Below are positions 22,740 to 50,463 of a stretch of 64,000 nucleotides of DNA, in pieces. The stretch is from positions 1 to 64,000 of IMG/VR virus record IMGVR_UViG_2744054842_000001. One strand, 5' to 3'. Below the pieces are notes generated by a model that made no database searches, was not told the DNA's origin, and saw only the letters and a list, made by a program, of their open reading frames with translations. The first letter of the stretch is position 1. Every line of letters starts with the position of its first letter. Origin of the DNA: a virus (lineage: Duplodnaviria > Caudoviricetes). A program made the position numbers and the translations under genes.

Positions 22740-23378
22740 TTATTTCCTCAGCGCCATCAAAATCAGGACGAACACCACGCAAAAGGCGATAGCTCCAAGT
22801 GCCTTGCCGATAGCCTCGTTCTTTTCAGTTTCTGCGGCAGCCCTCTGATTTAGATCATCTGCCTGCCTGTTTAATCTATCAGCCTCAGCGCTCATGTGAA
22901 GGGTGTTTGCATTAAGCTCTTCCGCATACATGGCCTGGAGGGCAAGCGCCTCATCTGGAGGCAGGTTTTTCAACTGTTCGTTGAACCTATCCTGCTGATC
23001 AAGAGCGATCTGATGAATATTCTCGCCTCTTGCTGCGGCCGCCAGCAGTTCGTCGCTATCTGTCTTGACGTATCTCCGCACAGCCTGCCTATCCAGAGTC
23101 CTTTCCTGGCGACTGCTTCCCTCATGATGATCATTCTGATGGGGGGATTCCTGCAGAGAGCTATTCGACTTCGCTTCGAGTTCTGCAACATACGCGTCAG
23201 TGAAGATAACTACGTCCTCATCTGGCCATCCTTGCATGAGGTTTTTCTGAGACTCCTCATGCTTGAGCAGGAGAGCCTGAATATCCTCACCGCTTTTGGC
23301 CGCATGCTCCAGTTCAGCCATGAAATGTGCAGCAACAGTCCTTGCTAGGCTATTCAGATCATCCCTGCTTTGAGCCAT
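22740..23378 (-). CDS. Moron membrane protein with an internal two-fold repeat and C-terminal TM helix
   Basis: ELEHAAKSGEDIQ..AYVAELEA and ELLAAAARGENIH..MYAEELNA; C-terminal ALGAIAFCVVFVLILMAL. Confidence 0.7.
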   Translation of the reverse strand: MAQSRDDLNSLARTVAAHFMAELEHAAKSGEDIQALLLKHEESQKNLMQGWPDEDVVIFTDAYVAELEAKSNSSLQESPHQNDHHEGSSRQERTLDRQAVRRYVKTDSDELLAAAARGENIHQIALDQQDRFNEQLKNLPPDEALALQAMYAEELNANTLHMSAEADRLNRQADDLNQRAAAETEKNEAIGKALGAIAFCVVFVLILMALRK

Positions 23379-23455
23379 TTTTTGCCACTCCCGAGTTGAT
23401 GGCAGCAATCTACCACCATCAGCAGGAAGCGCCAAAACCCCGCGAATACAGGGTG

Positions 23456-23486
23456 AAAAAAAGAAAGGACACCCAAAGGTGCCCTC
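23456..23486 (-). terminator. Intrinsic terminator closing the pentamer array
   Basis: GAGGGCACC-TTTG-GGTGTCCTT hairpin followed by a T run on the minus strand. Confidence 0.7.
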
Positions 23487-23489
23487 TCG

Positions 23490-23727
23490 ATGCCGTTTAC
23501 GGCCCACGCCGGACCAAGCCATACCATGGCCAACCACGGCACGCCTTGTCACGCCCCAGCTCAATTGGCGGCTTACGCCACCGCAATACCCCCTCGACGA
23601 AGGAGCATTACGCTGTTTTCAGCCCATGCCACACCTTGTCACGCCATATCGCGCCGGACCCTTGCGAACCTAGCCGCATGATGCTTTCGCACCGCAATGC
23701 CCTCTCATAGAAAGGGCATGACGCTAC
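23490..23727 (-). ncRNA. Putative guide-RNA array (VIPR vrRNA-like): two units of hairpin scaffold plus phased GGY-NN pentamers
   Basis: 23675-23621: GGCTA GGTTC GCAAG GGTCC GGCGC GATAT GGCGT GACAA GGTGT GGCAT GGGCT; 23560-23501: GCTGG GGCGT GACAA GGCGT GCCGT GGTTG GCCAT GGTAT GGCTT GGTCC GGCGT GGGCC; shared ATTGCGGTG and GNRA hairpin. Confidence 0.75.
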
Positions 23728-24186
23728 TCAGCGCAGGGCCTTCGTCGCCATCCCGCGCAGCGCGGAGAACTTCGCCACCTGATCCAGGTTATCTCGTCGC
23801 TGATCGTCGGTCAGCTCAGTGATGCGCAGATTTCTCAGCTTCTGCCCAGTGCTGCGGAACACCTTGCGAACGTTGCGCCCAAGCTCTTCCATGGCCACCC
23901 CCGTCTGCTCATGCGGTGGCACCCAGCGATAACCGCGCCCTCGTACTGACTGCAGGCAGACCTGGTGATCGCGCAGCAACTCGGCCTTGAACGCCTCGAC
24001 GTTTGCCAGCCATTCGAACTGCCGATCGCGGAACTGCTCGACCGTGAGCGACTTGGAGTCACCCATGGAGGGCATGCCGAACCGCGCCTCAAGCCAGTCG
24101 TGCCCCACAAGGTCGCCGTACTTGAACTCCTTGAGGAAGTCCTCGACCGCCTGCTTGTGACCGGGATATTTGGTGAGCTCAGACAT
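23728..24186 (-). CDS. Accessory protein coupled to the RAMP-like gene
   Basis: 152 aa, overlaps the upstream stop; winged-helix-like LLRDHQVCLQSVRGRGYRWV. Confidence 0.8.
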   Translation of the reverse strand: MSELTKYPGHKQAVEDFLKEFKYGDLVGHDWLEARFGMPSMGDSKSLTVEQFRDRQFEWLANVEAFKAELLRDHQVCLQSVRGRGYRWVPPHEQTGVAMEELGRNVRKVFRSTGQKLRNLRITELTDDQRRDNLDQVAKFSALRGMATKALR

Positions 24187-24754
24187 AGACCACCTTGAAA
24201 CGACCGAACCGTGGGCGATACTCGCAGACACCGATCAGCTTGCCGGAGTCCTCGATGGCCTTCTTCACCTCCTGAAGGTCAAGCACATCGGCATTGATCG
24301 CCACCTCAAGCTGGCATGCCCAGTCGAGAAAGATCGGCCGGTACCGCATGATCTTGGCCTGGCCGACCTTCACTCCGCGGCAGTCGACGAAACGCTGATC
24401 ATCCCAAAGCGACTCCGGCGTCGATGGGCCGGCGAATTCAAGCTCAGCCTTGTCAGTCATTACCAAGGCTCCGCGCTTCCAGTGCGTCCCCAGCTTCTGC
24501 AGCTTGGCGCCTGCAAGGAATGTCGCGTCGAAGTTCGCGCCAGGGATGAAGAACCCGGACGATGAATCAAAATAGGCACCGGCGATGAACTCAGACCGAG
24601 CAATGGCCAAGTGATCATCATCAGTTTTCTTGCGCTTGGCGGTCAGCTCCTTGTGAGCCTTCGTAGCCGGGTGCAGCGGGTTTGCCAGCTTGTCGCTGTG
24701 CATCATCAGCGGCGAAGTGCCCTTGATACTCAGAGTTAACAGCTCCATGCTCAT
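24179..24754 (-). CDS. Stand-alone RAMP/Cas7-like protein (Vipr-like)
   Basis: LTLSIKGTSPLMMH first strand, FFIPGANF motif, C-terminal Gly-rich loop SGKLIGVCEYRPRFGRFKV. Confidence 0.7.
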   Translation of the reverse strand: MSMELLTLSIKGTSPLMMHSDKLANPLHPATKAHKELTAKRKKTDDDHLAIARSEFIAGAYFDSSSGFFIPGANFDATFLAGAKLQKLGTHWKRGALVMTDKAELEFAGPSTPESLWDDQRFVDCRGVKVGQAKIMRYRPIFLDWACQLEVAINADVLDLQEVKKAIEDSGKLIGVCEYRPRFGRFKVVYV

Positions 24755-25629
24755 TTCCCGGCCCTCCGGGTCATGTACTCGTATCGGCTTTTCAGGTTCA
24801 CGACAGCCGCCATCAAGAACTGGAACATTTCGGGAATCGAGACAGGAATATCGCCAGGAGTAGCAACCATGCCCTCCATCAACTCGCGCTTGGACAGGAT
24901 GAATGCGCCTTCTGATATTTCCTCAATGCTCTGCTGGCCTTTGTGGTCGAAAGCCAGCAAGTAGCGCTTGTGTGGCTCGCCGGCGATCTGAACAGGCTCA
25001 CGCTTAGGCAGGTGCTCGCCCTCGAAAACGTAGGCAGCGACGAAGTTACAGGCATTGGCCAGTTCTTCCGCCGGAATCAGTGCGGTCTTCTGAACGCTGA
25101 AGCGGGTGCGCAGCCGGCTCTTCATGGTGTGTTTGAAGCTACGGCGCAGTGCGACCGGGAGAGCGTTGGCCTTCTGATCGATGACCTGATCCAGAACGTG
25201 CTCGCCGTCACTACCTATTACCGTTCCCATGAGAGTCTGAACAGGTACAGGGAAGGAGCTTCCACCTTGCCCCTTAATCTGGAAGTAGCTGTCTTCCAGC
25301 TTCTCGAACACCTCCCAGGCTTCGTCGGTGTCCAGCATCTTGGCATGACGAGCAGCACCACGCTCAGTCCAGAGGATGAGGCTACGCGCCTGCTTATCAA
25401 CAGACCCGATATTATCGGGGCTGTTCTTGAAAGCCTTGAGATCCGCGCCTTCCAGCTTGAAAAAGTGCTTCCCGGCTTCAAATCGGTCTGCGTTGTTCTG
25501 GAAATTGTCCTGGATGTTTTTGGGCTTGGCTCGGTACACGCTAGCGAGTGCCGCAGTGGTAATGACCGGCAGCCCGGTAAAGCGAATGCGCGGGAGGTTG
25601 TCCGGCGTAATTGTTGTGCTATTATTCAT
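24751..25629 (-). CDS. Phage antirepressor (ORF6N domain)
   Basis: PVITTAALASVY..NFQNNADRFEAGKHFFKLEG..LWTERGAARHAKMLDTDEAWEVFEKLEDSYF. Confidence 0.9.
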   Translation of the reverse strand: MNNSTTITPDNLPRIRFTGLPVITTAALASVYRAKPKNIQDNFQNNADRFEAGKHFFKLEGADLKAFKNSPDNIGSVDKQARSLILWTERGAARHAKMLDTDEAWEVFEKLEDSYFQIKGQGGSSFPVPVQTLMGTVIGSDGEHVLDQVIDQKANALPVALRRSFKHTMKSRLRTRFSVQKTALIPAEELANACNFVAAYVFEGEHLPKREPVQIAGEPHKRYLLAFDHKGQQSIEEISEGAFILSKRELMEGMVATPGDIPVSIPEMFQFLMAAVVNLKSRYEYMTRRAGK

Positions 25630-25696: not shown

Positions 25697-25864
25697 TCAT
25701 GCCCGCTGCTTTTTCTCATCCTGCATCTCCTGCTCGAGTGATTTTCTGAGCCGGAAGACAATCTCTCCGCTCAAGCTTCGCCCATTAATCTCCGCGCGCT
25801 GCTCCAGCTTTTGTCGCATATCGCACAGCATTCTCACTGCGGTGGTTATCTTCTTGGTACCCAT
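25697..25864 (-). CDS. Arc-family ribbon-helix-helix repressor (55 aa, not in ORF track)
   Basis: TAVRMLCDMRQKLEQRAEINGRSLSGEIVFRLRKSL; AGGAG RBS. Confidence 0.8.
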   Translation of the reverse strand: MGTKKITTAVRMLCDMRQKLEQRAEINGRSLSGEIVFRLRKSLEQEMQDEKKQRA

Positions 25865-25978
25865 ACCTGGCTCCTTTTCTTGCGTTTTGTGAGTTTAATG
25901 CCTTTGATTGCCTTGTCAAACATTTTTTGCTTTTTGTGCGTTTGATGTATGCTTCTAGAGACGTACATAGGGCGCGCC

Positions 25979-26404
25979 ATGTCTGACGATTTCGCAACAA
26001 AACTCATCTACCTGCGCGGCGAGAGAAACCTCACGCAGCAGGAACTGGGAGACGCCAGTGGTGTGTCTCCCTCACAGATTTCAAGGTATGAGGCTGGCCA
26101 GGCAAAGCCTCGTAAGACTGTGCTGAGAAAACTGGCCGAAGCACTTTGCGTGCCGGTGGAGGAGCTTCAAGACGAGGTTCCAGTCGTCCTAGAGAGTCCT
26201 GACGGCGATAAAATGCCGATCACGATAGACCGCGAAACCTTCGACCAGATGCAAAAAGCAGCCCGCGCATCAGGCAAGTCCTTGGGCGAAGTCCTGTCTG
26301 AAACCCTCGCCTGGGGCCTCCGAATGCTCAAAGAGAGCCCCGAATTCGCCGCCAGCCTTAAGCGACAGATCGAAGAAAGCCGAAAGGCAGATAAGGACGA
26401 GTAA
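25979..26404 (+). CDS. XRE-family HTH regulator with C-terminal RHH-like segment
   Basis: LRGERNLTQQELGDASGVSPSQISRYEAG. Confidence 0.88.
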   Translation: MSDDFATKLIYLRGERNLTQQELGDASGVSPSQISRYEAGQAKPRKTVLRKLAEALCVPVEELQDEVPVVLESPDGDKMPITIDRETFDQMQKAARASGKSLGEVLSETLAWGLRMLKESPEFAASLKRQIEESRKADKDE

Positions 26405-26513: not shown

Positions 26514-26792
26514 ATGATTATCAGCTTCCGTTGCCAAGAAACGCAGACGCTGTTCACGACTGGCGCCTCTCGCAGATGGGCGCCAATTCTGTCTGTCGCT
26601 CAACGAAAGCTGACGATGTTGAATGAGGCGGTCGCCCTGAAGGACCTCAGGGCACCTCCCGGGAATCGCCTGGAAGCACTACAAGGGAACCGGCAAGGTC
26701 AATACAGCATCCGAATAAATGATCAGTACCGAATTTGCTTTACCTGGGATGCTCAGGGGCCTGAAAACGTTGAAATTGTAGACTACCACTGA
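26514..26792 (+). CDS. higB: HigB toxin (RelE/ParE family)
   Basis: DLRAPPGNRLEALQGNRQGQYSIRINDQYRICFTW..VDYH. Confidence 0.93.
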   Translation: MIISFRCQETQTLFTTGASRRWAPILSVAQRKLTMLNEAVALKDLRAPPGNRLEALQGNRQGQYSIRINDQYRICFTWDAQGPENVEIVDYH

Positions 26793-26800
26793 GGTGACTT

Positions 26801-27112
26801 GTGTTTACTAACGGCATGCGCCCGGTCCACCCGGGCGAGATCCTAAAGGAAGAGTTCCTCCATCCACTGGATCTCACTCCGACAGAGGTTGCTCGGAAAC
26901 TTCACGTTTCCCCTCCCACTGTATTGGACATTGTGAACGAGAAGCGCGGCATCACCGCTGACGTAGCATTGCGCCTCGCAACCTGTTTTGACACCACCCC
27001 CCAATTCTGGACGAACCTCCAGTCTGCCTACGAGTTGCGCAAAGCTGAAATCGCGCATGGAGCAGAAATACAGCGGCAGGTGCAAAGGGTTGTGGAGAAT
27101 GCTGAGACATAG
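26801..27112 (+). CDS. higA: HigA antitoxin
   Basis: RPVHPGEILKEEFL..GITADVALRLA..TTPQFWTNLQSAYEL. Confidence 0.93.
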   Translation: MFTNGMRPVHPGEILKEEFLHPLDLTPTEVARKLHVSPPTVLDIVNEKRGITADVALRLATCFDTTPQFWTNLQSAYELRKAEIAHGAEIQRQVQRVVENAET

Positions 27113-29839: not shown

Positions 29840-31009
29840 TTAAGCGGTGACGGTGACAGCACAGGTGTCGGTCTTGGTGCCGTCTGCGGCGCTGGTCGCG
29901 GTGATGGTGGCGGTGCCGGCAGCCAGGCCGGTTACCAGGCCGGTGGCGCTCACGCTTGCGATGGCCGGGTCCGAAGAGGTCCAGGTAACCAGCTGGCTTG
30001 CGCCAACTGGGGTGACCACGGCCTCGAGATCTGCAGTTTCGTCCACCGCTAGGCTCAGGGTGGCCGGGGTTACTTCCACCGCAGCAATGACGACGGGCGC
30101 CGGCAGACGGGTGATGGTCGGCGGCACGCGGCGGGCGGTGTATGACAACTCGACTTGAACGATGTCGGTGGCGCCACCGTCCGGCCAATCGCCGCTGACT
30201 TCCATCTCGGGGATGAGGAAGGTGTAGCCACCGTCTGCGTTGCTCAGGGTGAACTCGAAGCTGAGCGAGTCGCCGGTCTGCTGCGCCTTCCAGTACTGGT
30301 AGGCGGTCTTGGACCAACTCAGGGTGATCGAGCCGGACGGAACGAACGTCGTTGTGATCACTGCCCCGGGAAACGGGTTGCCGTTGCCGATGCAGCGCTG
30401 GGTCTGCGAGTTGTTGGCGAACTGCAGGTTGAAGGTGTCAACGCACGCGTTGTCGTCACCCAGCTGCACGCCGTTGATCTTCAGCCCGGTCACATCCTTG
30501 AAGCCGTAGCGCCGCTGGTTGGCCTCGGGCGCAGGACTGACGATGAAGGAAGTGTTGTCGGCCTTGTCCTGCCACGAGGTGGCCATGAACGTGGTGGTGA
30601 CGCTGATCTCGTTGTCGTTCGGGACCTCGATGTTGATCGTGTCAACCTGGGCTCCGCGAGCGATGCCGGCGATACCAACGTCCGCGTCATAGGCAGCGAT
30701 GGAGAACGAAATGCGATCGTTGCCCATGGTCAGGGTATTACCGGACCAGTTCGCGCCGAAGCAGGAGGCCAGGAACTCGTCCAGAGCCCCGTAGCGGAAC
30801 TTGGTCTCGATATCGCCGCCGACATCCACGGTCGTCTGGGCAGTGCCCTGCGACATGCGAGTCTCGCCGATCTCGTTGTTCTCTTCGGTGTTGTAGGTAG
30901 GCACCAGGCCGAAGCTGACGCGGGTCAGCACGTTCCATGGGCCTGGCGGGGTAATTCCCGGGGTGATCTCGCGAATCCACGCGGTCGAGCGCTTTGCACC
31001 GCTACTCAT
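29840..31009 (-). CDS. Major tail tube protein with C-terminal Ig-like (Big_2) domain
   Basis: MSSGAKRSTAWIREITPG..; VTWTSSDPAIASVSATGLVTGLAAGTATITAT. Confidence 0.9.
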   Translation of the reverse strand: MSSGAKRSTAWIREITPGITPPGPWNVLTRVSFGLVPTYNTEENNEIGETRMSQGTAQTTVDVGGDIETKFRYGALDEFLASCFGANWSGNTLTMGNDRISFSIAAYDADVGIAGIARGAQVDTINIEVPNDNEISVTTTFMATSWQDKADNTSFIVSPAPEANQRRYGFKDVTGLKINGVQLGDDNACVDTFNLQFANNSQTQRCIGNGNPFPGAVITTTFVPSGSITLSWSKTAYQYWKAQQTGDSLSFEFTLSNADGGYTFLIPEMEVSGDWPDGGATDIVQVELSYTARRVPPTITRLPAPVVIAAVEVTPATLSLAVDETADLEAVVTPVGASQLVTWTSSDPAIASVSATGLVTGLAAGTATITATSAADGTKTDTCAVTVTA

Positions 31010-49723: not shown

Positions 49724-50463
49724 AAGCCCCCCAGGTCATCAGCCCAGCTGATGTCGTTGAAGTCGGGACCGCTGCGGCGCTGGCCCTGCTGGGCACCTGG
49801 CAGCACCCTCTCCGGGAACAGGCCGGTCCAGCCGTTGCTGATCGACTGGTTGATCACCGCGTCGGGTGCGTGGTGGCCGGCCAGGGTCTTGGCCTGCTTC
49901 GCGCAGGTGGTGGCGGTCAGCGGCTTGCGGATCTCTTTACGGTGCTGACACCAGTCGGCCCATACGGCGGTGTTGACGTTGGACGGGCAGGCGGTCAGAG
50001 GGTCAAACTTCGAGGCCTTGCGCGAAGCGGTCGGGGACGCCTTGGCGGCCGCGCGCTCACCCTCAGTTGTACTGTTGCTCTTTGTATTACTCTCCTCCGC
50101 CTTTTCCGAAGAGGGGTCACCGTGTTTTCCGAATAGGGTCGTCGTGTTTTCCGAATAGGTATTCGACTTTCCGAATAGGTTCGTGAGACGCACACGACGC
50201 TCTACGACCTGCCGACCATCACGGATCAGTTCGACCCGCAAAAGACCCTTGGCCGACAAAGCACTGATGATCTCGGACACGCGAGAGCTCGACAGGCCAA
50301 AGAACCTGGCGAAATGGCTGTTGCTGGCGTAGCAGCCGCGGACAGGGTCTTGCAGGCTACCAATCTCCACCATCATCACCTTCTCGGTGATCGACAGGGA
50401 GTGGTCGAGCCAGACCTCGGCAGGGATCCATACGCCCTTGAATTGACGCGGGATGTCGGTCAT
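49720..50463 (-). CDS. Replication initiator (O-like, N-terminal HTH)
   Basis: FKGVWIP..CYASNSHFA; C-terminal WADWCQHRK..SISNGWTGLF; internal iterons. Confidence 0.88.
   Translation of the reverse strand: MTDIPRQFKGVWIPAEVWLDHSLSITEKVMMVEIGSLQDPVRGCYASNSHFARFFGLSSSRVSEIISALSAKGLLRVELIRDGRQVVERRVRLTNLFGKSNTYSENTTTLFGKHGDPSSEKAEESNTKSNSTTEGERAAAKASPTASRKASKFDPLTACPSNVNTAVWADWCQHRKEIRKPLTATTCAKQAKTLAGHHAPDAVINQSISNGWTGLFPERVLPGAQQGQRRSGPDFNDISWADDLGGL
50103..50179. repeat. Four iterons TTTCCGAA(T/G)AGG, phage replication origin
   Basis: Copies at about 50103, 50126, 50148 and 50168 inside the O-like gene, as in lambda ori. Confidence 0.8.

What the first reader, a model, noticed from the sequence alone, without database searches (positions are those of the whole stretch)
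23456..24754. Candidate phage RNA-guided system: stand-alone RAMP/Cas7-like gene plus a 5-nt-phased GGY-NN guide array (VIPR-like)
Seen in sequence: on the minus strand a 191-aa gene and a coupled 152-aa gene are followed at once by two non-coding units whose pentamer runs end exactly 120 bp apart. Each unit is AGCGT, a long hairpin, ATTGCGGTG, a GNRA hairpin (GC-GAAA-GC or GGC-GTAA-GCC), 11 or 12 contiguous pentamers, and a closing hairpin. A terminator ends the array. All 23 pentamers start with G, 14 start GGC/GGT, 20 have a pyrimidine at position 3, and the last two bases vary freely. The scaffold stems differ in sequence but keep their pairing. Established knowledge: the protein's first strand (LSIKGTSPL), IPGxxF motif and C-terminal Gly-rich loop (G..IG..YRPRFGRF.V) are RAMP/Cas7-superfamily hallmarks. 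No cas1/2/3 genes or CRISPR array are present. Inference: the protein polymerises on the RNA, one subunit per pentamer, and presents the NN bases for target recognition. This matches my recollection of recently reported phage VIPR systems, which I cannot verify here.
Basis: partly seen in the sequence, partly recalled or inferred. Interest (0 to 1): 0.95.

Follow-up and report, generated by a model that had tools for sequence, protein, structure and literature searches.

The report
Phage VIPR RNA-guided silencing locus
This Pseudomonas prophage carries a recently described VIPR system: a small Cas7-like protein, a helper gene and two guide RNAs built from five-base repeats, and the guides appear to be aimed at the tail-tube genes of rival prophages.

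Summary

**Membership**
- The 191-aa protein matches the solved SUSP1 Vipr protein (PDB 36pp) at E 4.3e-43 and 40% identity.
- It folds as a CRISPR RAMP: pLDDT 94, with Csm3/Cas7 chains as the top Foldseek hits.
- The 152-aa gene is a vap1 homologue.
- Two GGY-NN tracts of 11 and 12 units follow it. These are the only such runs in the window, and 0 of 200 shuffles reproduce one.
- 25 of 27 homologous loci carry similar arrays. Across them NN is near-random and position 3 is 97% pyrimidine.
- VIPR is in print as four 2026 bioRxiv preprints, so the kind is known. This locus is a type II member.

- The conserved hairpins are more likely the 3' tail of the preceding tract than a 5' handle.

**New here**
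- Under the published one-base-skip rule, guide 1 matches 18 of 18 bases at one codon-phased site of a tail-tube gene. This holds in 20 of 20 IMG/VR hits and in a Pseudomonas laurentiana prophage.
- Guide 2 matches 19 of 20 bases at another tail-tube site.
- The phage's own tube gene is spared.

**Not shown**
- Expression and silencing were not tested.

The parts
24179..24754 (-). vipr: 191-aa Vipr (RAMP) protein. The true start may be the third codon (M3, at 24748), which aligns with M1 of SUSP1 Vipr.
   Evidence: PDB 36pp 'SUSP1 Vipr protein' matches at E 4.3e-43 over residues 3-188. BLASTP against SUSP1 gp039 gives 40% identity, E 3e-53. phrog_4652 matches at E 7.6e-73. The AF2 model has pLDDT 94.3. 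The top Foldseek PDB hits are Csm3/Cas7, type VII Cas7, Cmr and Cas6.
23728..24186 (-). vap1-like accessory gene, 152 aa, overlapping the vipr stop.
   Evidence: It is 22% identical (E 2e-13) to the gene after vipr in SUSP1. phrog_5926 matches at E 7.9e-48. A homologue follows vipr in 18 of 27 loci. The fold has pLDDT 87.6; only weak matches to winged-helix DNA-binding domains were found, best E 0.11.
23680..23723 (-). First copy of hairpin A (about 23723-23693) plus tetraloop hairpin B (GGTGC-GAAA-GCATC, about 23693-23680). It sits directly after the vap stop and has no tract before it.
   Evidence: Read from the sequence. It forms direct-repeat family D1 with the second copy. This 5' copy is absent in L001, L006, L007 and L008.
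23583..23675 (-). Predicted vrRNA1. It has 11 GGYNN units (23675-23621); units 1-9 carry the guide TA TC AG CC GC AT GT AA GT. The closing hairpin is at 23623-23612 and the 13-bp hairpin A at 23611-23583, which I read as the 3' tail. The RNA ends are inferred, not measured.
   Evidence: Searches support the tract. One search supports the tail structure, with compensatory changes at 13 of 17 pairs across 25 tails. Searches support the target.
23561..23582 (-). Hairpin B, second copy (GGTGGC-GTAA-GCCGCC, 23582-23567), plus the linker AATTGA. It is either a spacer, a processing element or a 5' leader of vrRNA2.
   Evidence: Read from the sequence. The equivalent elements in relatives differ in sequence but still form a stem and loop (alignment; inspected by eye, not counted).
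23456..23560 (-). Predicted vrRNA2. It has 12 units (23560-23501); units 1-10 carry the guide GG GT AA GT GT TG AT AT TT CC. The closing hairpin GCCG-TAAA-CGGC is at 23503-23492, and the intrinsic terminator at 23488-23463 is followed by a T run.
   Evidence: Searches support the tract and terminator. Searches support the near-target.
24751..25629 (-). ORF6N/Rha-type antirepressor gene. Its stop overlaps the vipr start (ATGA). It is probably the upstream part of the same transcription unit. The ORF is open up to 25761.
   Evidence: Pfam ORF6N matches at E 7e-18. PHROG antirepressor families match down to E 5.6e-47. A homologue lies upstream of vipr in 7 of 27 loci.
25697..25864 (-). 55-aa Arc-like ORF at the head of the putative operon, with a promoter-like site at 25919-25892.
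   Evidence: It is 75% identical to the phage Medea1 gene noted as 'Arc family DNA-binding protein'. The promoter-like site matches 10 of 12 consensus bases. I did not run Pfam on it.
29843..31009 (-). The phage's own tail-tube gene. It is a homologue of the predicted targets but is not itself matched by the guides.
   Evidence: Pfam Phage_tube_2 matches at E 3.2e-28 and Big_2 at E 1.5e-18. It is 41% identical to the vr1 target protein and 316 of 389 residues identical to the vr2 target protein. Its own sites match 7 of 18 (vr1) and 13 of 20 (vr2) guide bases.

Best explanation
This is a type II VIPR (Viral Interference Programmable Repeat) system in a Pseudomonas provirus.

Shown by homology and sequence:
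- There is a Vipr RAMP protein, a vap1-like accessory protein and two vrRNA genes.
- Each vrRNA gene is a run of GGYNN units closed by a structured 3' tail.

Inferred from the published SUSP1 work:
- One Vipr protomer binds each pentamer and holds the GGY bases.
- The NN dinucleotides are exposed and pair with double-stranded DNA at two bases out of every three.
- The bound filament blocks transcription.

Inferred here from pattern searches:
- Guide 1 reads the antisense of codon positions 1-2 of the peptide TFTMAGLDY in the tail-tube gene of one lineage of Pseudomonas prophages.
- Guide 2 does the same for GNIIPTTFTP in a second lineage whose tube protein is 81% identical to this phage's own. 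It carries one mismatch to every target copy found.
- The phage's own tube gene differs enough at both sites to be spared.
- The likely outcome is that rival prophages or superinfecting relatives cannot make tails.
- The locus probably runs from an Arc-antirepressor (immI-like) promoter to the terminator at 23463, so it would be expressed on infection or induction. This last step is the weakest.
For: Protein:
- PDB 36pp 'SUSP1 Vipr protein' matches at E 4.3e-43 over residues 3-188.
- 40% identity, with SUSP1 H17, K33, R138 and R179 identical. D177 is E and W178 is Y in the window protein.
- H19, R139 and R180 (window numbering) are invariant in 26 homologues.
- the model is confident, and the best-ranked PDB hits (those at E 4e-4 or better) are almost all CRISPR RAMP or effector-complex entries (Csm3/Cas7, type VII Cas7, Cmr1, Cas6).
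- the accessory gene is a vap1 homologue.

Arrays:
- the two tracts are unique in the window and are not reproduced by 200 shuffles.
- 25 of 27 homologous loci have a tract of 8 or more units with 5 or more GGY within 1.5 kb on the same strand. SUSP1 is among them.
- in 392 units from 36 tracts, position 3 is 97% pyrimidine. Positions 4 and 5 carry 1.97 and 1.96 bits of entropy.
- the tail hairpins covary.

Targets:
- guide 1 matches 18 of 18 bases in 1 of 401 Pseudomonas genomes. The reversed-pattern control gave 2 hits, both with 1 mismatch.
- 20 of 20 IMG/VR exact matches lie at the same codon-phased site, with the skip bases at wobble positions.
- guide 2 matches with 2 or fewer mismatches in 7 of 251 genomes, against 1 of 251 for the control.
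- 5 of those 7 hits share one identical mismatch, and 5 of the 7 resolve to a tail-tube ORF. The other two were read out of frame by my script and share the same DNA site.
- 56 of 56 IMG/VR hits to the 19-of-20 version lie at one peptide, in 18 DNA versions that differ only at skip bases.
- the target genes are Phage_tube_2 plus Big_2.
- there is no self-target.

Context:
- no Cas1 and no CRISPR array.
Against: - Nothing here shows that the RNAs are made, processed or bound. No RNA run is listed for this DNA.
- Only 14 of 23 units are canonical GGY. The others have C, A or G in place of a canonical base at position 2 or 3 (GCA, GAT, GAC twice, GCT, GCC twice, GGG twice), which may weaken binding.
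- The pyrimidine-pocket residues E71 and M72 of SUSP1 are A and N here.
- No exact match was found for guide 2. Exact 18-base sub-patterns gave only 4 and 1 hits, in unrelated low-GC contigs. Its target call therefore rests on a 19-of-20 match.
- The shuffled-guide nulls were run on loci that had been chosen by the pattern, so they are not independent.
- The published account of the related Pseudomonas fulva clade says most guides hit lysis-lysogeny regulators. It does not mention tube genes.
- The vap fold search gave no significant match.
Confidence: 0.92

Rival explanations
1. This is the same VIPR system, but the unit anatomy is. Hairpin A, the ATTGCGGTG motif and tetraloop hairpin B form a 5' handle for the tract that follows, and only the small closing hairpin lies 3' of the tract.
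For: - In the window and in about 9 of 14 close loci, a full A+B copy precedes the first tract directly after the vap stop (my reading of the printed sequences).
- Hairpin B always sits 3-8 nt before a tract when one follows.
Against: - In L001, L006, L007 and L008 the first tract starts right after the vap stop with no scaffold.
- In L004, L005, L009, L012 and L027 the last tract is followed by an A+B copy with no tract behind it.
- Where there is no A, a terminator hairpin takes its place after the closing hairpin.
- Hairpin A abuts the closing hairpin with no spacer.
- The discovery preprint states that the tract precedes an invariable 3' tail.
- A tract plus closing hairpin plus A comes to about 93 nt, which fits the reported vrRNA size of about 100 nt.
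Confidence: 0.25
2. This is a decayed or repurposed Vipr locus. The protein and RNAs are relics, or they regulate the phage's own genes and do not attack rivals.
For: - 9 of 23 units depart from GGY.
- Guide 2 has no perfect target in the collections searched.
Against: - Both ORFs are intact and 85-99% identical to those of other Pseudomonas proviruses.
- The key contact residues are kept.
- No site in the 75.6-kb record matches either guide better than 15 of 22 bases.
- Guide 1 has perfect, codon-phased targets in 20 viral contigs.
- The preprint itself notes that internal degeneracy of the units is frequent.
Confidence: 0.05
3. This is not a guide system at all. On this view a ring-forming RNA-binding protein of the TRAP type binds 11-12 spaced G-rich triplets to attenuate the downstream genes.
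For: - The number and spacing of the repeats (11-12 units with a 5-nt period) recall the TRAP binding site. This comparison is from my own recall, not from any call.
Against: - The adjacent protein is a full-length homologue of a solved Vipr filament protein and has a RAMP fold.
- The array is followed by a terminator and not by a regulated gene's leader.
- The NN strings find specific phage targets.
Confidence: 0.01

Closest known systems
Type II VIPR of Escherichia phage SUSP1 (bioRxiv 10.64898/2026.04.26.720920 and 10.64898/2026.04.26.720927; PDB 36pp)
   Same: - The gene order is vipr then vap1, with vrRNA genes downstream on the same strand.
- Vipr is 40% identical over its full length, and the G-contacting H, R and R residues are kept.
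- The units are GGYNN, and the tract length (11-12 units) lies within the reported 9-16.
- The tract is followed by a structured tail.
- Targets fit the NNx rule, with skip bases at codon wobble positions.
   Different: - There is no vrRNA upstream of vipr here, and two lie downstream instead of three.
- The tail here is a 4-bp closing hairpin plus a 13-bp hairpin or a terminator. I did not find or test a pseudoknot.
- The host is Pseudomonas and the carrier is a temperate siphovirus-like provirus, not a lytic Ounavirinae phage.
- The predicted targets are tail-tube genes of rival prophages, not a satellite's recombinase.
- D177 is E, W178 is Y, and E71/M72 are A/N.
Pseudomonas fulva prophage VIPR clade (same preprint; 32 loci above 90% Vipr identity)
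   Same: - It is a Pseudomonas prophage-borne type II system with vipr, vap1 and two or three vrRNAs.
- Its guides are reported to hit resident Pseudomonas prophages.
- No self-targeting is reported.
   Different: - I could not obtain the P. fulva sequence, so I cannot say whether this locus lies inside that 90% clade.
- The preprint text says most guides of that clade hit lysis-lysogeny regulators of one prophage locus.
- The two guides here point at tail-tube genes. The words 'tube' and 'antirepressor' do not occur in its main text.
Class 1 CRISPR backbone subunits (Csm3/Cas7 of type III-A, Cas7 of type VII)
   Same: - They share the RAMP fold. The top Foldseek hits have probability 1.00 and TM about 0.5.
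- One subunit binds per fixed length of guide, with a thumb that breaks the guide-target pairing periodically. This point comes from the preprints.
   Different: - Sequence identity is about 10%.
- The period is 5 nt with 2 pairing bases, not 6 nt with 5.
- There is no cas1, no CRISPR array and no other cas genes.
- The guide is hard-wired in the genome and is not acquired.
P22 immI region (mnt-arc-ant); recalled knowledge, not tested against P22 sequence
   Same: An Arc-like gene and an antirepressor gene sit head to tail and face a divergent HTH regulator gene.
   Different: - Here the operon continues into vipr, vap and the vrRNAs.
- The regulator is an XRE-type HTH, not Mnt.
- No regulation was tested.

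Membership tests
VIPR system (type II) | A Vipr protein homologous to a characterised Vipr | tested here: met
   PDB 36pp SUSP1 Vipr matches at E 4.3e-43 over residues 3-188. BLASTP gives 40% identity, E 3e-53.
VIPR system (type II) | A RAMP fold (RRM core, glycine-rich loop, thumb) | tested here: met
   The AF2 model has pLDDT 94.3 and pTM 0.87. 54 PDB matches have E <= 0.001, and the listed top ranks are CRISPR RAMPs. The G-loop segment aligns with SUSP1 residues 173-179. I did not examine the thumb separately.
VIPR system (type II) | Residues that hold G1, G2 and the target backbone in SUSP1 (H17, R138, D177, W178, R179, K33) | tested here: met
   H, K, R and R are identical. D is replaced by E and W by Y, both conservative. 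H19, R139 and R180 are invariant in 26 sequences. The Y3-pocket residues E71 and M72 are not kept (A and N).
VIPR system (type II) | Adjacent vrRNA genes made of tandem GGYNN (YNNGG) units, 9-16 per RNA, on the vipr strand | tested here: met
   There are 11 and 12 units, 14 of 23 of them canonical GGY. 0 of 200 shuffles reproduce such a run.
VIPR system (type II) | GGY conserved and NN hypervariable among relatives | tested here: met
   In 392 units from 36 tracts in 14 loci, position 2 is G in 73%, position 3 is a pyrimidine in 97%, and positions 4 and 5 carry 1.97 and 1.96 bits. Position 1 is G by the way the runs were defined.
VIPR system (type II) | A conserved structured 3' tail after the tract | tested here: met
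   In 25 internal tails, the 4-bp closing hairpin is invariant and the 13-bp hairpin has compensatory changes at 13 of 17 predicted pairs. I did not test for the pseudoknot reported in the SUSP1 clade.
VIPR system (type II) | A vap accessory gene next to vipr, predicted to bind DNA | tested here: inconclusive
   Homology to the SUSP1 gene after vipr is met (E 2e-13), and a homologue is present in 18 of 27 loci. The DNA-binding fold is not established: the best Foldseek hit has E 0.11, although the weak rows are mostly OmpR/PhoB-type winged-helix domains.
VIPR system (type II) | Guides find targets under the one-base-skip (NNx) rule, with skip bases at codon wobble positions and no self-target | tested here: met
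   Guide 1 matches 18 of 18 bases at one site in 20 of 20 IMG/VR hits and in one genome. Guide 2 matches 19 of 20. The best self match is 15 of 22 bases.
VIPR system (type II) | vrRNAs are expressed, co-purify with Vipr and silence matching DNA | not testable with these tools
   This needs small-RNA sequencing, a pull-down and a reporter assay.
Pseudomonas fulva VIPR clade | Vipr more than 90% identical to the P. fulva protein | not testable with these tools
   The P. fulva sequence and the supplementary tables were not available. The nearest Pseudomonas relatives held are 90% identical (L001-L003).
CRISPR-Cas class 1 | A CRISPR repeat-spacer array and adaptation genes | tested here: not met
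   No Cas1 is found in the record, while the same search found it in 7 of 14 control genomes. No direct-repeat family has three or more spaced copies.

The most novel reading that the evidence does not exclude
This provirus uses VIPR against late structural genes and not against regulators. Both hard-wired guides block tail-tube genes: one in a distant lineage and one in close relatives that share 81% of the tube protein. The phage's own tube gene has diverged at exactly that site. The system is also the tail end of an Arc-antirepressor operon. The phage may therefore wake resident prophages with its antirepressor and, from the same transcript, stop them from building tails. The variable GNII[P/Q/T/A]TTF[T/V]P site would then mark an ongoing guide-target arms race.
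Probability: 0.3. Interest if true: 0.55.

Novelty: new member of a known kind. Interest (0 to 1): 0.4.

Why it matters
VIPR was reported only in 2026, and the experimental work centres on one E. coli phage. The P. fulva prophage system was expressed heterologously as well.

This locus adds a clean, complete Pseudomonas example with a concrete, testable pair of natural targets. Its guides point at a structural gene class that the preprint text does not mention. It also sits in an antirepressor operon, which suggests when the system is switched on.

The comparison of 14 loci gives a covariation-supported model of the vrRNA tail for this branch. The preprint reports tail covariation only for five SUSP1-clade tails.

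None of this changes the known mechanism. It extends the catalogue and offers an easy experimental system.

Tried and rejected
**Family and structure searches**
- Pfam gave nothing for either protein. There was only a sub-threshold GDE_N_bis match, which I take as chance.
- Rfam has no family for the RNAs. There was only a chance sbrA row at 17 bits against a cut-off of 45.
- The Foldseek search with the vap model found no match at E <= 0.001.

**Guide 2 target searches**
- Exact searches of IMG/VR with two 18-base parts of guide 2 gave 4 and 1 hits.
- All were in contigs of 36-46% GC with unrelated reading frames. I reject them as chance.

**Controls with limits**
- The shuffled-guide nulls were run on loci that the patterns themselves had selected. 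I do not use them as support.
- I asked whether 23 guides from relatives target this provirus. None beat its own shuffled null clearly; the best was 18 of 22 against a null maximum of 17.

**Alternative readings**
- I considered that the 274-aa ORF at 22740-23564 codes through array 2. I rejected this because it runs through the terminator, and the downstream gene has its own ATG at 23375.

**Expression and binding**
- No RNA holder was listed for this DNA, and no run held more than 0.18 of the sampled words. I did not lay reads.
- I did not send a complex prediction.

**Supplements**
- The supplementary data of the preprints were closed. Tables S2 and S3 and data S3 and S4 may already list this locus or its targets.
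Full report
**What is in the sequence**

On the minus strand a 191-aa ORF (24179-24754) overlaps a 152-aa ORF (23728-24186) by 8 nt. About 270 nt of non-coding DNA follow, ending in an intrinsic terminator at 23488-23463 with a T run.

I scanned both strands of the window for runs of pentamers phased on G. Only two long runs appeared: 23675-23616 and 23560-23496. The next longest run anywhere has 8 units.

All 23 begin with G, 14 are GGC or GGT, 20 have a pyrimidine at position 3, and the runs end 120 nt apart.

In 200 block shuffles of the window, a G-phased run of 11 or more units arose in 24. A run that also had 7 or more GGY units arose in none; the window has two.

**What it is**

Neither protein has a Pfam family. 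Both belong to phage families of unknown function, phrog_4652 and phrog_5926.

A literature search showed that VIPR systems are real and were described in 2026. I consulted four preprints:
- The discovery preprint, bioRxiv 10.64898/2026.04.26.720920. I read the outline, Results, Discussion, three Methods sections and passages.
- A cryo-EM preprint, 10.64898/2026.04.26.720927. I read the outline and two Results sections.
- A competition study, 10.64898/2026.10.15.759431. I read the abstract, outline and one Methods section.
- A language-model survey that recovers VIPR arrays, 10.64898/2026.10.21.760802. I read passages only.

The window protein matches the PDB chain 36pp_D, 'SUSP1 Vipr protein', at E 4.3e-43 over residues 3-188. 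It is 40% identical to the SUSP1 phage gene product.

Of the SUSP1 residues named in the cryo-EM preprint:
- H17, K33, R138 and R179 are identical.
- D177 is E and W178 is Y.
- E71 and M72 are A and N (the residue roles come).
- H19, R139 and R180 (window numbering) are invariant in an alignment of 26 homologues.

An AlphaFold2 model built on that alignment has pLDDT 94.3. Its best-ranked PDB neighbours are almost all CRISPR RAMP or effector-complex entries: Csm3/Cas7 of type III-A, Cas7 of type VII, Cmr1 and Cas6. Their probability is about 1.00 and their TM-score about 0.5.

The 152-aa protein is 22% identical (E 2e-13) to the gene that follows vipr in SUSP1, which the preprint calls vap1. 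A homologue follows vipr in 18 of 27 loci. Its predicted fold has only weak resemblance to winged-helix DNA-binding domains, with best E 0.11.

The record is an IMG/VR provirus of 75,648 bp rated complete. It has no Cas1, and the window has no CRISPR-like repeats.

**Relatives**

A scan of one genome per species found 25 loci encoding relatives at 31-90% identity. They range from Pseudomonas to Actinomycetota and Bacteroidota. The phage collection holds 135 records with a match, among them SUSP1 and Pseudomonas phage Medea1.

25 of these 27 loci (23 of the 25 genome loci, plus SUSP1 and Medea1) have at least one tract of 8 or more units with 5 or more GGY. The tract lies within 1.5 kb of vipr on the same strand. 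There are two exceptions:
- L013 has no tract, and its contig ends 23 nt upstream of the gene.
- L022 has long arrays of GGA-NN units that my GGY criterion does not count.

I pooled 392 units from 36 tracts in the 14 closest loci. Position 2 is G in 73%, position 3 is a pyrimidine in 97%, and positions 4 and 5 are close to random at 1.97 and 1.96 bits. Position 1 is G by construction.

The last vrRNA of a Pseudomonas laurentiana provirus (L002) shares its first nine NN pairs with the window's second vrRNA. Five of its GGY triplets differ. That is the pattern expected if the NN bases carry the information.

**Anatomy of the RNAs**

Every tract in the 14 close loci ends with ..AT (or ..GT), then GGGCY, then a 4-bp closing hairpin: GCTG-NNNN-CAGC. 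In the last unit of an array the hairpin is the covarying GCCG-NAAA-CGGC.

The closing hairpin abuts either a long hairpin A or the terminator hairpin. RNAalifold on 25 internal tails predicts the closing hairpin plus a 13-bp hairpin A, and 13 of 17 pairs show compensatory changes.

Presence and absence across loci decide the orientation:
- A scaffold copy before the first tract is missing in L001, L006, L007 and L008.
- A scaffold copy with no tract behind it follows the last tract in L004, L005, L009, L012 and Medea1.

I therefore read the closing hairpin plus hairpin A as the 3' tail, as published. Tetraloop hairpin B would then be a spacer or a processing element.

This gives predicted RNAs of about 93 nt (23675-23583) and about 105 nt (23560-23456). 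These ends are inferred. No Rfam family covers the RNAs.

**Targets**

The preprints state that the NN bases pair with DNA while one target base is skipped per unit.

*Guide 1*
- The pattern from units 1-9 has 18 specified bases. It matches exactly in a P. laurentiana genome, and a second copy matches with one mismatch.
- It matches in 1 of 401 Pseudomonas genomes. The reversed control pattern hit twice, each time with one mismatch.
- In IMG/VR it has 20 exact matches. All 20 are in contigs of 58-63% GC, at the same site, coding ..KITATFTMAGLDYADGD.. on the opposite strand.
- The skipped bases fall on third codon positions and vary among contigs.
- The gene encodes a tail-tube protein (Phage_tube_2 at E 2.3e-42, plus Big_2).
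- Equally long patterns from guide 2 gave 4 and 1 hits, all in unrelated low-GC contigs. This serves as an empirical estimate of the chance rate.
- Units 10 and 11 of guide 1 mostly do not match, which fits their being conserved tail.

*Guide 2*
- Units 1-10 have 20 specified bases. They have no exact match.
- They match with 2 or fewer mismatches in 7 of 251 Pseudomonas genomes, against 1 of 251 for the control.
- Five hits share the same single mismatch. The site again lies in a tail-tube gene, at GNIIPTTFTP.
- My ORF picker read two of the seven loci in the wrong frame, but they carry the same DNA site.
- The 19-of-20 version occurs in 56 IMG/VR contigs. All 56 are at that peptide, in 18 DNA versions that differ only at skip bases.

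*The phage's own gene*
- The phage's own tube gene (29843-31009) is 41% identical to the first target protein. It shares 316 of 389 residues with the second.
- At the two sites it matches only 7 of 18 and 13 of 20 guide bases.
- No site in the whole record matches better than 15 of 22.
- None of 23 guides from relatives clearly targets this provirus.

**Context and likely use**

Going upstream on the same strand, the locus is preceded by:
- an ORF6N/Rha antirepressor gene, whose stop overlaps the vipr start;
- a 55-aa gene that is 75% identical to the Medea1 gene noted as Arc family;
- a promoter-like site at 25919-25892 that faces a divergent XRE regulator gene.

The antirepressor is upstream of vipr in 7 of 27 loci, and the Arc-like gene in 4 of 27.

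I infer one transcription unit from that promoter to the terminator at 23463. It would be expressed on infection or induction. This is the least supported step.

**Verdict**

The locus meets every sequence-level criterion of a type II VIPR system that I could test. Expression, RNP formation and silencing could not be tested.

I could not establish whether it falls inside the published P. fulva clade, or whether the authors' supplementary tables already list it.

- The kind is known, and this is a further member.
- The additions made here are the tail-tube targets, the sparing of the phage's own gene, the covariation model of the tail and the corrected unit boundaries.

Noticed in passing
window 26514-27112 (+): A HigB-like toxin gene (Pfam E 4.8e-16) is followed by an HTH antitoxin-like gene (HTH_3, E 9.7e-08). 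They lie in the same accessory island between the tail-tube and tape-measure genes.
   Followed up: partly
window 25697-26404: An Arc-like ORF and an antirepressor gene face a divergent 151-aa XRE-type regulator gene (HTH_3, E 1.9e-16). The layout resembles P22 immI, with the VIPR genes as the distal part of the operon.
   Followed up: partly
L022:3501-3971 (Zixibacteriota MAG): Downstream of a 35%-identical Vipr homologue lie four or five long arrays of GGA-NN units (12-20 units each), each ending in GGCTT. Position 3 is a purine where the canonical motif has a pyrimidine. This may be one of the non-canonical repeat types mentioned in the preprints.
   Followed up: no
G001:C40 (L002 and L028), Pseudomonas laurentiana: The same provirus contig carries its own VIPR locus and, about 3.2 kb away, the perfect target of the window's guide 1. 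The last guide of that locus shares nine NN pairs with the window's guide 2.
   Followed up: partly
window 29843-31009 (-) and L057-L063: The guide 2 site in tail-tube proteins varies among phages: GNIIPTTFTP, GNIIQTTFVP, GNIIATTFTP, and GAVITTTFVP in this phage. The flanking residues stay the same. This could be a trace of escape from guides.
   Followed up: no
window 22740-23375 (-): A 211-aa ORF lies between the VIPR terminator and the tape-measure gene. It has no Pfam or PHROG family, and its C-terminal end is hydrophobic.
   Followed up: no
window 50114-50157 and 982-1025: There are two pairs of adjacent 22-nt direct repeats, 91% and 82% identical. They could be operator or iteron-like sites.
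   Followed up: no
L016, L018, L021 (Nitrococcus, Piscicoccus, Gemmatimonadales loci): Distant Vipr homologues are flanked by much longer and more regular GGC-NN tracts of 18-24 units. In L021 there is one run of 42 units in phase. These exceed the 9-16 units stated for type II.
   Followed up: no
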